Below, one piece after another: positions 12,001-15,000 of a DNA stretch of 64,000 nt; positions within the stretch are counted from its first letter, which is position 1, and each line of letters starts with the position of its first letter. The position numbers were made by a program. Source of the stretch: Escherichia coli (GTDB lineage: Bacteria > Pseudomonadota > Gammaproteobacteria > Enterobacterales > Enterobacteriaceae). The stretch is from NCBI RefSeq assembly GCF_016903815.1, contig NZ_CP069973.1. One strand, given 5' to 3'.

Positions 12001-15000
12001 ATGAAACGTTCTACCAGGTCAACAGCCAGGTCATCTACACGCGGATCGTTGTTACCAAACTGCGGGTATTCGCCTTCGATTTCGAAGTCGATAGCCAGAC
12101 CGTCTTCGTCACGAATCGGTTTAACTTTCGCATATTTGATTGCAGACAGGGAGTCAGCAGCAACGGACAGACCAGCGATACCACACGCCATGGTGCGGAT
12201 AACGTCACGGTCGTGCAGCGCCATCAGAGAGGCTTCGTAGCTGTACTTGTCGTGCATGTAGTGGATGATGTTCAGTGCAGTGATGTACTGTTTAGCCAGC
12301 CAGTCCATGAAGTGATCCATGCGCTCCATCACTTCATCGTAGTTCAGGAGATCGCCTTTGATCGGCTCAGACTTCGGACCAACCTGCATTTTCAGTTTTT
12401 CGTCAACGCCACCGTTGATTGCGTACAGCATGGTTTTCGCCAGGTTTGCACGCGCACCGAAGAACTGCATTTGTTTACCAACGATCATCGGGCTTACGCA
12501 GCAAGCGATAGCGTAGTCATCGTTGTTGAAGTCCGGACGCATCAGGTCATCGTTCTCATACTGCAGAGAAGAGGTGTCGATGGACACTTTAGCAGCGAAT
12601 TTCTTGAAGTTCAGCGGCAGTTTTTCGGACCACAGAATGGTCATGTTCGGTTCCGGAGACGGACCCATGGTGTACAGGGTGTTCAGGAAACGGAAGCTGT
12701 TTTTGGTAACCAGGGTACGACCGTCGAGGCCCATACCACCGATAGATTCGGTTGCCCAGATCGGGTCGCCAGAGAACAGTTCATCGTATTCCGGAGTACG
12801 CAGGAAGCGAACCATACGCAGTTTCATGACCAGGTGGTCAACCATTTCCTGCGCTTCTTGTTCGGTGATCTTGCCAGCTTTCAGGTCACGTTCGATGTAC
12901 ACATCCAGGAAGGTGGAGGTACGACCGAAGGACATTGCAGCACCGTTCTGAGACTTAACAGCAGCCAGGTAGCCGAAGTAAGTCCACTGGATAGCTTCCT
13001 GAGCGTTGGTAGCCGGACCAGAGATGTCGTAGCCGTATTTCGCAGCCATTTCTTTCATCTGACCCAGAGCGCGGTGCTGTTCAGCGATTTCTTCGCGCAG
13101 ACGGATAGTCTGTTCCAGGTTTACGCCGTTTTCCAGATCAGCCTGCAGAGAGGTGAACTGTGCAAGTTTATCTTTCATCAGGTAGTCGATACCGTACAGC
13201 GCAACGCGACGGTAGTCACCGATGATACGACCACGGCCATAAGCATCTGGCAGACCGGTCAGAACACCGGATTTACGGCAACGCAGGATGTCCGGAGTGT
13301 AAACGTCGAACACGCCCTGGTTGTGAGTTTTACGGTATTCAGTGAAGATTTTTTTGATCATCGGGTCCAGTTCGCGGTTGTACGCTTTGCAGGAACCTTC
13401 GATCATTTTGATACCACCGAACGGGATAAGAGCACGTTTCAGCGGAGCTTCAGTCTGCAGACCAACAACTTTTTCCAACGCTTTGTTGATGTAGCCAGCG
13501 TCGTGAGAGGTGATGGTGGAAGCAACAGCGGTGTCAAAGTCAACTGGCGCGTGAGTGCGGTTTTCCAGTTTAACGCCTTCCATTACTTTGTCCCACAGGG
13601 TGGTGGTCGCTTCAGTAGCGCCAGCCAGGAAGGACTCGTCACCCTCGTACGGAGTGTAGTTTTTCTGAATGAAGTCACGGACGTTTACTTCATTCTGCCA
13701 GTCACCTTTGGTAAAACCTTCCCAGGCTGTGGCTAACTTTTCATTAAGCTCGGACATGTAACACCTACCTTCTTAAGTGGATTTTTTATTTACTGCGTAC
13801 TTCGACAACCATTAATGGTGATCGTTTTCACGCAGGTAAATGACCCAGTATGTCAACCCAACCAACAAACCACCGCCGATAATATTACCGATCGTAACCG
13901 GAATCAGGTTATCAGTGATGAAGTTCATCACGGTCAGGTGAGAAAAATTTTCCGGTGCAGAACCGACAGCGGTCCAGAATTCCGGAGATGCGAAGTCGCG
14001 GATTACAATACCCATCGGGATCATAAACATGTTTGCGATACTGTGCTCAAAACCGCTGGCAACAAACATCGCGACCGGCAGCACCATAATGAACGCTTTA
14101 TCCATCAGGCTGCGGCCAGAATAACTCATCCATACTGCCAGACATACCATCAGGTTTGCCAGGATACCAAGGCAGACGGCCTCAATAAAAGTATGGTGCA
14201 CTTTGTGGTCGGCGGTTTGTAGGACGTTTAGTCCCCATTGACCATTCGCGGTCATATACTCGCCGGAAAGCCACATTAAAAGTACAAACAGCAGTGCGCC
14301 GACCAGGTTGCCAAAATAGACATTTAGCCAGTTTTTCGCCAACTGACCCCAGGTGATTCGCCCACTCGCCTTAGCAACAACAATCAACACTGTGGAAGTA
14401 AAGAGATCGGCTCCGCAGACAACACAAAGAATCAGCCCCAGAGAGAAGCAAATGCCGCCAACCAGTTTTGCCATGCCGAAGGGCATTGTTCCTGTGCCAG
14501 TGGTTGCTGTGATATAGAAGACGAATGCGATTGAGATGAAAACACCGGCGGTAATCGCCAGATAGAAAGTCTTAAGCGGATGTTTCGTTGCTTTATAGAC
14601 ACCTGCCTCTTCGGCCACTTTGGCCATTGCTGCAGGAAGTAAAAGATCAAAAGGGTTGTCAGCTTTCACACTAACTCTCTCTTTATTAAGTCGGCGACGA
14701 GATACTAACAAAGCATTATAGATGAGAAATTGATATAGATCATATCTCGCCTGGCTTATAGGCCCGTAACTCGCATGGTTTTTATGCAAATACGGAGTAA
14801 ATATTTGATTATCCAAATAAAAATAAATTTTAAAAATTAACAAATGAGTTGAATTTTTTCCGCATCCTCCGCTAAAACAGTTAATTAAAAGGGAGCACCA
14901 GGCGAATGAAGTAACAATATCGATCGTATTTATTAAATACAAATTACCGACATTTAACTTTATAATTACAATTATTTTATTAATGCAAATATATGTAAAG

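What the first reader, a model, noticed from the sequence alone, without database searches (positions are those of the whole stretch)
14725..14750. Near-consensus FNR box upstream of focA
TTGAT-ATAG-ATCAT lies ~60 bp upstream of the focA GTG start. This fits the known anaerobic activation of the focA-pflB operon. It is expected rather than novel, but confirms the regulatory region is intact next to the prophage junction.
Basis: partly seen in the sequence, partly recalled or inferred. Interest (0 to 1): 0.15.

Follow-up and report, generated by a model that had tools for sequence, protein, structure and literature searches.

The report
Known FNR site of focA-pflB promoter
The motif is real and is the well-known binding site through which the oxygen sensor FNR switches on the E. 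coli formate-channel/pyruvate formate-lyase operon without oxygen; it is textbook regulation, intact in this strain, and not a discovery.

Summary
TTGATATAGATCAT lies at window 14730-14743. focA is on the minus strand (GTG at 14669), so in gene orientation the box reads ATGAT-CTAT-ATCAA. Its centre is 67.5 bp upstream of the GTG.

The region from the GTG to about -228 is base-for-base identical to E. coli K-12 MG1655. The same 14-mer is listed as a focA FNR site in a list the paper took from CoryneRegNet 4.0. It is also listed as a predicted FNR site under an FNR ChIP-seq peak (Myers 2013, top-scoring site at -40.5, operon "directly activated by FNR").

A crude count of near-consensus matches is not significant. 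A weight matrix built from 62 other ChIP-bound sites makes this the best site in the 64-kb window (16.8 bits; 0.07 expected).

The half-sites are invariant and the spacer varies in 94 other distinct upstream sequences from Enterobacterales genomes, at a nearly fixed distance from the GTG.

The best explanation is a class II FNR activator site for the proximal focA promoter, overlapped by a NarL heptamer and by a second, TATAAT-driven start.

Two corrections apply: the strand, and the prophage junction, which is 3.5 kb away, inside the 5' end of pflA. Already known; low interest.

The parts
14730..14743 (-). FNR box of the proximal focA promoter (called P6, from memory). It reads ATGAT-CTAT-ATCAA in gene orientation; centre 14736.5.
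   Evidence: Sequence. Weight-matrix score 16.8 bits, the best in the window. Identical to the listed focA FNR site and to Myers 2013 Table S6 site 953750 under a ChIP-seq peak. Half-sites invariant in 95 distinct Enterobacterales sequences, window included.
14702..14710 (-). Extended -10 element TGTTAGTAT of the FNR-dependent promoter. The hexamer TAGTAT falls at -12..-7 if the start is 14695.
   Evidence: Read from the sequence. The spacing fits the box at -41.5/-40.5 (Myers Table 1). Nearly invariant across genera. The assignment is an inference.
14695..14696 (-). Inferred start of the FNR-dependent transcript, giving a 26-27 nt leader.
   Evidence: Box centre minus 41.5 or 40.5. The -40.5 value comes from Myers 2013 Table 1. 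Not measured in this strain.
14715..14720 (-). Perfect TATAAT of an overlapping promoter whose start is at 14706.
   Evidence: The Kim 2012 start-site table gives 953726 (U00096.2), which is window 14706, with 56 reads and a 37-nt leader. The upstream sequence printed there ends ...TATAATGCTTTGTTA. Relative to this start the FNR box is centred at -30.5.
14729..14735 (-). NarL heptamer TATCAAT, overlapping the proximal FNR half-site.
   Evidence: Listed focA NarL site ATATCAA -> TATCAAT.
14712..14718 (-). NarL heptamer TAATGCT, overlapping the TATAAT.
   Evidence: Listed focA NarL site.
14797..14811 (-). ArcA-type motif GTAAATATTTGATTA upstream of the box. Further motifs lie at window 14875-14889 and 14944-14958.
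   Evidence: Federowicz 2014 Table S5, motifs under the ArcA ChIP region, at 953817-953831 and onward. Converted with window = U00096.2 - 939020.
15069..15082 (-). Second listed focA FNR site, CAAAATAAAATCAA (upstream promoter, called P7 from memory). Only one good half-site; it overlaps the ycaO stop codon.
   Evidence: Listed. Weight-matrix score only -6.5 bits. A sigma-70 ChIP peak at 954032 (window 15012) lies nearby.
13812..14669 (-). focA (formate channel), GTG start.
   Evidence: RefSeq annotation of the collinear strain 7/2; alignment to K-12.
11475..13757 (-). pflB (pyruvate formate-lyase), the second gene of the operon.

Best explanation
The box is the FNR operator of the promoter-proximal focA-pflB promoter.

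Without oxygen, dimeric [4Fe-4S]-FNR binds the inverted repeat ATGAT-N4-ATCAA, centred about 41 bp upstream of a transcript start at window 14695/14696. From that position it overlaps the -35 region and recruits RNA polymerase to a promoter that has an extended -10 (TGTTAGTAT) and no usable -35. This is class II activation, and it raises focA-pflB transcription anaerobically.

The same DNA also carries a NarL heptamer, which would serve nitrate repression. It lies at -30.5 of a second start (14706) that is driven by a perfect TATAAT. FNR occupancy therefore probably also shifts initiation from that start to the FNR-dependent one.

Shown here:
- the sequence and its position;
- identity to K-12;
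- identity to the listed and ChIP-supported K-12 site;
- statistical exceptionality;
- conservation across genera.

Taken from the literature on K-12: FNR occupancy in vivo, FNR-dependent activation, and the start-site positions.

Inferred:
- that the same holds in this strain;
- the polymerase contacts, which are general knowledge of class II FNR/CRP promoters;
- the promoter-switch idea.
For: - The motif is at 14730-14743. focA lies on the minus strand with its GTG at 14669.
- Window 14600-15100 is 99% identical to K-12 MG1655. There is no difference between the GTG and window 14897.
- Myers 2013 Table 1: the focA-pflB peak is centred at 953,741, the top site is at -40.5, and the operon is in the category 'directly activated by FNR', with higher sigma-70 occupancy and expression without oxygen.
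- Myers 2013 Table S6: TTGATATAGATCAT at 953750, 'focA', at a ChIP-seq peak. Coordinate 953750 equals window 14730.
- FNR ChIP-chip regions over the same DNA: Federowicz 2014 gives 953406-954037, scored as activation; Grainger 2007 gives 953,866 as a known target.
- The list taken from CoryneRegNet 4.0 holds exactly this 14-mer as a focA FNR site.
- Weight-matrix score 16.8 bits, the best in the window; 0.07 expected per 64 kb and 0.0026 per intergenic region.
- The 42 nt around the box are 100% identical in 5396 of 5424 E. coli records.
- In 101 of the 105 loci with enough upstream DNA, drawn from Enterobacterales genomes (Citrobacter, Enterobacter, Klebsiella, Salmonella, Hafnia, Edwardsiella, Sodalis and others), the best site upstream of focA is ATGATC-NNN-(A/G)TCAA. 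It lies 66.5-69.5 bp from the GTG (74.5-75.5 in two). The half-sites are invariant and the spacer varies.
Against: - Nothing was measured in this strain: no start site, no FNR binding, no expression.
- The primary mapping papers (Sawers & Bock 1989; Sawers & Suppmann 1992) are not held in the library. The names P6/P7 and the classical -41.5 therefore rest on my memory plus Myers' -40.5.
- The whole proximal promoter is highly conserved, so conservation of the half-sites is only partly specific to FNR. The variable spacer is the specific part.
- The only genome-wide start-site record I could read puts the start at 14706, not 14695/6. The growth conditions of that record were not read here; from memory the cultures were aerobic. 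An FNR-dependent start at 14695/6 is therefore not confirmed by an independent data set that I could read.
Confidence: 0.95

Rival explanations
1. The box serves mainly as a negative element. FNR bound at -30.5 of the TATAAT-driven start (14706) occludes that promoter, so the site is a promoter switch or repressor site rather than an activator site.
For: The measured start at 953726 (window 14706) is preceded by a perfect TATAAT, and the box centre is 30.5 bp upstream of it, over the -35 region. Both -10 elements are conserved across genera. From memory, an overlapping promoter 'P6A' was described by Kaiser & Sawers 1997; I could not read that paper (one search found no open text).
Against: In K-12 the net effect of FNR on the operon is activation (Table 1 category 1). 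This reading complements the activator role and does not replace it.
Confidence: 0.35
2. The box is a CRP site. cAMP-CRP, not FNR, is the physiological ligand.
For: The same list also holds the 22-mer GAAATTGATATAGATCATATCT as a focA CRP site. Myers cites Sawers et al. [quoted passage not shown] The core TGATCTA-ATCA resembles the CRP consensus core.
Against: Read from the sequence, the match to TGTGA-N6-TCACA is only 7 of 10. The base before TGA, which discriminates the two proteins, is T (the FNR type) in the proximal half-site and A in the distal one, never the G that CRP prefers. FNR occupies the site in vivo in three genome-wide studies.
Confidence: 0.08
3. It is a chance near-palindrome in AT-rich intergenic DNA, with no function.
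For: Near-consensus matches are not enriched in the window: 6 against 2.9 expected. The spacer is 32% G+C.
Against: The weight-matrix expectation is 0.0026 in this spacer, even with its own base composition. The half-sites and the position are invariant across genera. FNR ChIP in K-12 covers identical DNA.
Confidence: 0.01

Closest known systems
FNR site of the promoter-proximal focA-pflB promoter of E. coli K-12 (called P6 in Sawers' papers, from memory; Myers 2013 Table S6 site 953750)
   Same: The 14-mer is identical. The flanks are identical from the GTG to about 228 bp upstream. The distance to focA and the neighbouring -10 elements and NarL heptamers are the same.
   Different: Nothing differs at the site itself. 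This strain differs from K-12 only further upstream, at window 14898, 14908, 14951, 14959 and 15039. The changes at 14951 and 15039 each fall inside a listed NarL heptamer (K-12 TACCGAT and TAATCAT).
Class II FNR-activated promoters, such as narG, dmsA, nirB and yfiD
   Same: An inverted repeat of the TTGAT-N4-ATCAA type centred about -41.5; an anaerobic rise in sigma-70 occupancy.
   Different: One half-site starts with A instead of T, a base found in only 8 of 124 training half-sites. That A is invariant across genera. The promoter also overlaps a second TATAAT promoter and lies downstream of a long ArcA/NarL-bound region and a second promoter. IHF binding in that region is recalled from memory only.
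The upstream focA FNR site (called P7, from memory), CAAAATAAAATCAA
   Same: It belongs to the same operon and the same source list. It is present in this window at 15069-15082.
   Different: It has only one recognisable half-site and scores -6.5 bits against 16.8. It lies 339 bp further upstream and overlaps the end of ycaO.

Membership tests
FNR binding site (operator of the CRP/FNR family) | Inverted repeat matching TTGAT-N4-ATCAA | tested here: met
   9 of 10 half-site bases match. The score is 16.8 bits on a matrix built from 62 other ChIP-bound sites, above their median of 15.3.
FNR binding site (operator of the CRP/FNR family) | Occurs more often than chance allows at this place | tested here: met
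   Expected 0.07 per 64 kb and 0.0026 per 404-bp spacer. The bare consensus count alone is not significant.
FNR binding site (operator of the CRP/FNR family) | Occupied by FNR in vivo | not testable with these tools
   Not testable for this strain. For the identical K-12 sequence there is a ChIP-seq peak centred at 953,741 to 953,746, which is 10-16 bp from the box centre, and there are ChIP-chip regions.
   The 14-mer plus flanks are identical to the focA FNR site in the list taken from CoryneRegNet 4.0. The alignment to K-12 shows no differences there.
FNR binding site (operator of the CRP/FNR family) | Half-sites conserved in orthologous promoters while the spacer is free to vary | tested here: met
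   In 95 distinct sequences (window included), ATGATC and TCAA are 100% conserved, the A of ATCAA about 80% (G otherwise), and the three spacer positions 60-96%. The caveat is that the flanking promoter is also highly conserved.
Class II FNR-dependent promoter | Site centred near -41.5 of a transcript start, with a -10 element at the right spacing | tested here: inconclusive
   Myers gives -40.5 for K-12. The sequence has TGnTAGTAT at -15..-7 of a start at 14695. The only start-site record I could read gives 14706 instead. No start was measured in this strain.
Class II FNR-dependent promoter | fnr-dependent anaerobic activation of the downstream operon | not testable with these tools
   K-12 literature only: Myers Table 1, category 'directly activated by FNR'; Federowicz, 'Activation'; a 2025 review reports 10- to 12-fold induction through FNR and ArcAB.
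CRP binding site | Match to TGTGA-N6-TCACA, with G before TGA | tested here: not met
   Read from the sequence, TATGA...TCAAT matches 7 of 10, and the discriminating base is A or T, not G. The 22-mer is nevertheless listed as a CRP site, so CRP cross-recognition is documented but secondary.

The most novel reading that the evidence does not exclude
The box may be more than a plain FNR site. Its non-consensus distal base (A instead of T) is rare among bound FNR half-sites (8 of 124). The GATC (Dam) tetranucleotide formed by the half-site and the first spacer base, ATGATC, sits inside the box. Both features are invariant in 95 distinct Enterobacterales sequences, although FNR itself shows no strong preference for C at that spacer position (44 of 124). 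This could reflect a second, conserved constraint: deliberately weakened FNR affinity, dual FNR/CRP reading, or methylation-sensitive binding.
Probability: 0.08. Interest if true: 0.35.

Novelty: already known. Interest (0 to 1): 0.06.

Why it matters
It matters little. The result confirms that this strain keeps the K-12 anaerobic control region of focA-pflB unchanged at its core, so annotation and regulon predictions can be transferred to it.

The cross-genus comparison is a clean example of a transcription-factor footprint: invariant half-sites, a variable spacer and a fixed distance to the gene.

The window holds something more interesting than the box. A P2-like prophage has split pflA from its own promoter and start codon, which may affect how the activating enzyme of the very enzyme controlled by this box is expressed.

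Tried and rejected
1. I tried to read the primary mapping papers (PMC206030 and PMC209925). They are not held. Full-text searches for the 14-mer and for 'P6A' found nothing usable. Two searches failed on syntax, and one ChIP-exo search found nothing.

2. My first guess for the second FNR site was TTGATTATCCAAAT at 14805-14818, with an upstream promoter only about 75 bp above the first. I rejected it: it scores -1.7 bits, and the listed second site is CAAAATAAAATCAA at 15069-15082, near the second sigma-70 peak.

3. I first placed the GTG at 14670. It is at 14669, as the annotation and the offset seen show. All distances in this report use 14669.

4. The 398-aa ORF that extends the focA frame up to 15008 looked odd for AT-rich DNA. 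K-12 has a TGA where this strain has TGG, because of the base change at window 14898. It is not a conserved extension, so I dropped it.

5. The promoter-consensus scan found nothing at the box and only TTTACA-17-AATAAT at 14999-14971. Class II promoters lack a -35 element, so this is uninformative.

6. Federowicz Table S6 ('Fnr motifs') appears to hold nearly the same rows as the ArcA motif table S5, so I did not use it as evidence for FNR.

Full report
**The observation**

The window carries TTGATATAGATCAT at 14730-14743 on the + strand, inside the coordinates given. The neighbouring genes run on the minus strand: pflB at 11475-13757, focA at 13812-14669 with GTG at 14669-14667, and ycaO at 15075-16835. 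In the direction of transcription the box therefore reads ATGAT-CTAT-ATCAA. Its proximal edge is 61 bp and its centre (14736.5) 67.5 bp upstream of the GTG.

**Is it more than chance?**

TTGAT-N4-ATCAA with up to one mismatch occurs 6 times in the window against 2.9 expected, and 8 of 100 shuffles reach 6.

I built a symmetric weight matrix from the 62 other FNR sites that lie under ChIP-seq peaks in Myers et al. 2013 Table S6, leaving the focA site out.
- The box scores 16.8 bits. This is the highest score in the 64-kb window and above the median of the training sites (15.3).
- The expectation is 0.07 such sites per 64 kb.
- With the AT-rich composition of the 404-bp focA-ycaO spacer, the expectation there is 0.0026.

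**Identity with the K-12 site**

The region is E. coli core genome, present in 5422 of 5426 complete genomes. Aligned to K-12 MG1655, window 14600-15100 is 99% identical, and nothing differs between the GTG and window 14897. The coordinate conversions are window + 939797 = NC_000913.3 and window + 939020 = U00096.2.

Four lines of published K-12 evidence fall on this DNA:
1. The FNR binding-site list that the MotifAdjuster paper took from CoryneRegNet 4.0 holds two focA (b0904) FNR sites. One is GAGATATGATCTATATCAATTTCT -> ATGATCTATATCAA, which is this box. The other is CAAAATAAAATCAA.
2. Myers 2013 Table S6 lists TTGATATAGATCAT at 953750, 'focA', at an FNR ChIP-seq peak. Coordinate 953750 is exactly window 14730.
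3. Myers 2013 Table 1 puts focA-pflB among 'operons directly activated by FNR'. The peak centre is 953,741, the top site is at -40.5, and sigma-70 occupancy and expression are higher without oxygen.
4. FNR ChIP-chip regions cover the same DNA in Federowicz 2014 (953406-954037, 'Activation, Known') and Grainger 2007 (953,866, a known target).

**Anatomy around the box**

- *FNR-dependent promoter.* With the box at -41.5/-40.5 the transcript start falls at window 14695/14696. The minus strand then has TGTTAGTAT at 14710-14702, an extended -10 with its hexamer at -12..-7, and no credible -35. This is what a class II promoter looks like (the assignment is an inference).
- *Overlapping TATAAT promoter.* Thirteen bases upstream of that -10 lies a perfect TATAAT (14720-14715). 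The Kim 2012 genome-wide start-site table records a start at 953726, which is window 14706, with 56 reads and a 37-nt leader, and it prints this very upstream sequence. Relative to that start the box sits at -30.5. FNR binding probably disfavours that promoter while activating the other. I recall such an overlapping promoter ('P6A', Kaiser & Sawers 1997) but could not read the paper.
- *NarL.* Listed NarL heptamers overlap the proximal half-site (TATCAAT, 14735-14729) and the TATAAT (TAATGCT, 14718-14712). This fits the reported decrease in operon expression with nitrate.
- *ArcA.* ArcA-type motifs under the ArcA ChIP region lie further upstream, at window 14797-14811, 14875-14889 and 14944-14958.
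- *Second FNR site.* It is at 15069-15082, overlaps the ycaO stop codon, has only one good half-site (-6.5 bits), and lies near a second sigma-70 ChIP peak (954032, window 15012).

**Conservation**

Within E. coli, the 42 nt around the box are 100% identical in 5396 of 5424 records.

Across genera, a degenerate pattern for the first FocA codons found 108 loci in a one-genome-per-species collection.
- 105 loci had enough upstream DNA.
- In 101 of them the best FNR-type site in the 130 bp upstream is ATGATC-NNN-(A/G)TCAA, 66.5-69.5 bp from a GTG start (74.5-75.5 in two).
- Of the other four loci, two are spurious pattern hits with no start codon before the match, one (a Sodalis symbiont) keeps the box but has ACG in place of GTG, and one has a degraded distal half-site.
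- The genera include Citrobacter, Enterobacter, Klebsiella, Raoultella, Salmonella, Kluyvera, Buttiauxella, Hafnia, Edwardsiella and Sodalis.

In the 95 distinct sequences (window included), ATGATC and TCAA are invariant, the A of ATCAA is about 80% conserved, and the other three spacer positions are 60-96% conserved. Both -10 elements are nearly invariant.

Invariant half-sites with a drifting spacer at a fixed distance are the signature of a dimeric operator. The caveat is that the whole proximal promoter is strongly conserved.

**Mechanism**

The best-supported reading is the textbook one, with confidence 0.95. Anaerobically active FNR binds the box and activates the proximal focA-pflB promoter as a class II activator.
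- The polymerase contacts are general knowledge of the FNR/CRP family and were not tested here.
- The promoter-switch role relative to the TATAAT start is a plausible complement (0.35).
- A primary CRP role is unlikely (0.08). The match to the CRP consensus is 7 of 10 and the discriminating bases are wrong, although the 22-mer is also listed as a CRP site.
- Chance is excluded.

**What differs in this strain**

At the box, nothing differs. Upstream there are five base changes relative to K-12, at window 14898, 14908, 14951, 14959 and 15039. The changes at 14951 and 15039 each fall inside a listed NarL heptamer. The change at 14951 also lies in an ArcA-type motif.

**The 'prophage junction'**

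- *Location.* Window 1 to about 11262 is a P2-like prophage: tail genes, a Shedu nuclease at 3039-4265, and ogrK at 10937-11155 (the window is collinear with strain 7/2, with 93 mismatches in 41.9 kb). Homology to K-12 resumes at window 11263, inside the first codons of pflA.
- *What stays at attR.* The core shared by both prophage ends is about GTCAGTTATTGGT. At attR, in the window, the native pflA promoter region, ATG and five codons are fused to phage DNA (MSVIGDIF*).
- *What happens at attL.* At attL in strain 7/2, the pflA body acquires a phage-encoded start and a 19-aa N-terminal extension, next to the phage integrase.
- *How common it is.* This junction is present in 404 of 5426 complete E. 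coli genomes.

The junction is therefore 3.5 kb from the FNR box, at the far end of the operon. It does not touch the focA regulatory region.

**Verdict**

The site is already known, and the interest is low.

Noticed in passing
window 11255-11290 (attR); prophage occupies window 1-11262; L111 3560-3760 (attL in strain 7/2): A P2-like prophage is integrated inside the first codons of pflA (shared core about GTCAGTTATTGGT). The native pflA promoter, ATG and five codons remain at attR, fused to phage DNA (MSVIGDIF*). At attL the pflA body gets a phage-encoded start and a 19-aa extension (265 aa against 246), next to the phage integrase. The junction occurs in 404 of 5426 complete E. coli genomes.
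   Followed up: partly
window 3039-4265: A gene for a Shedu immune nuclease family protein sits between the tail-fibre assembly gene and the tail-sheath gene of the P2-like prophage (RefSeq annotation of the collinear strain 7/2). The left part of the same prophage in strain 7/2, outside the window, also carries a reverse-transcriptase gene and an FRG-domain gene.
   Followed up: no
window 14730-14743 and orthologues (L003-L110): The non-consensus distal base of the box (A instead of T; 8 of 124 training half-sites) is invariant in 95 distinct Enterobacterales sequences. So is the GATC Dam tetranucleotide formed by ATGATC, although C is only the plurality base at that spacer position in bound FNR sites (44 of 124).
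   Followed up: partly
window 14671-15008, minus strand: The focA reading frame stays open for 113 codons upstream of the GTG (a 398-aa ORF from an ATG at 15008), through AT-rich DNA. The other two frames have 12-13 stops. K-12 has a TGA where this strain has TGG (base change at 14898), so the extension is not conserved.
   Followed up: yes
window 14951 and 15039: Two of the five base differences from K-12 in the focA-ycaO spacer fall inside listed NarL heptamers: TACCGAT becomes TACCGAC, and TAATCAT becomes GAATCAT. The second lies in the region where I infer the -10 of the upstream promoter. The first also lies in an ArcA-type motif.
   Followed up: no
window 15048-15066: A hairpin, AGCCTAC-N5-GTAGGCT, lies just after the ycaO stop codon. 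It sits between the upstream FNR half-site and the -10 I infer for the upstream focA promoter. The scan scored it as a terminator on the + strand (T-run on that side), not on the ycaO strand.
   Followed up: no
K-12 coordinates 953,890-953,901 (U00096.2), equal to window about 14870-14881: Lourenco et al. 2016 report recurrent IS1/IS5 insertions 174-212 bp upstream of focA during mouse-gut adaptation, with raised anaerobic focA expression. These lie upstream of the FNR box, in the region with ArcA and NarL motifs. No such insertion is present in this window.
   Followed up: no
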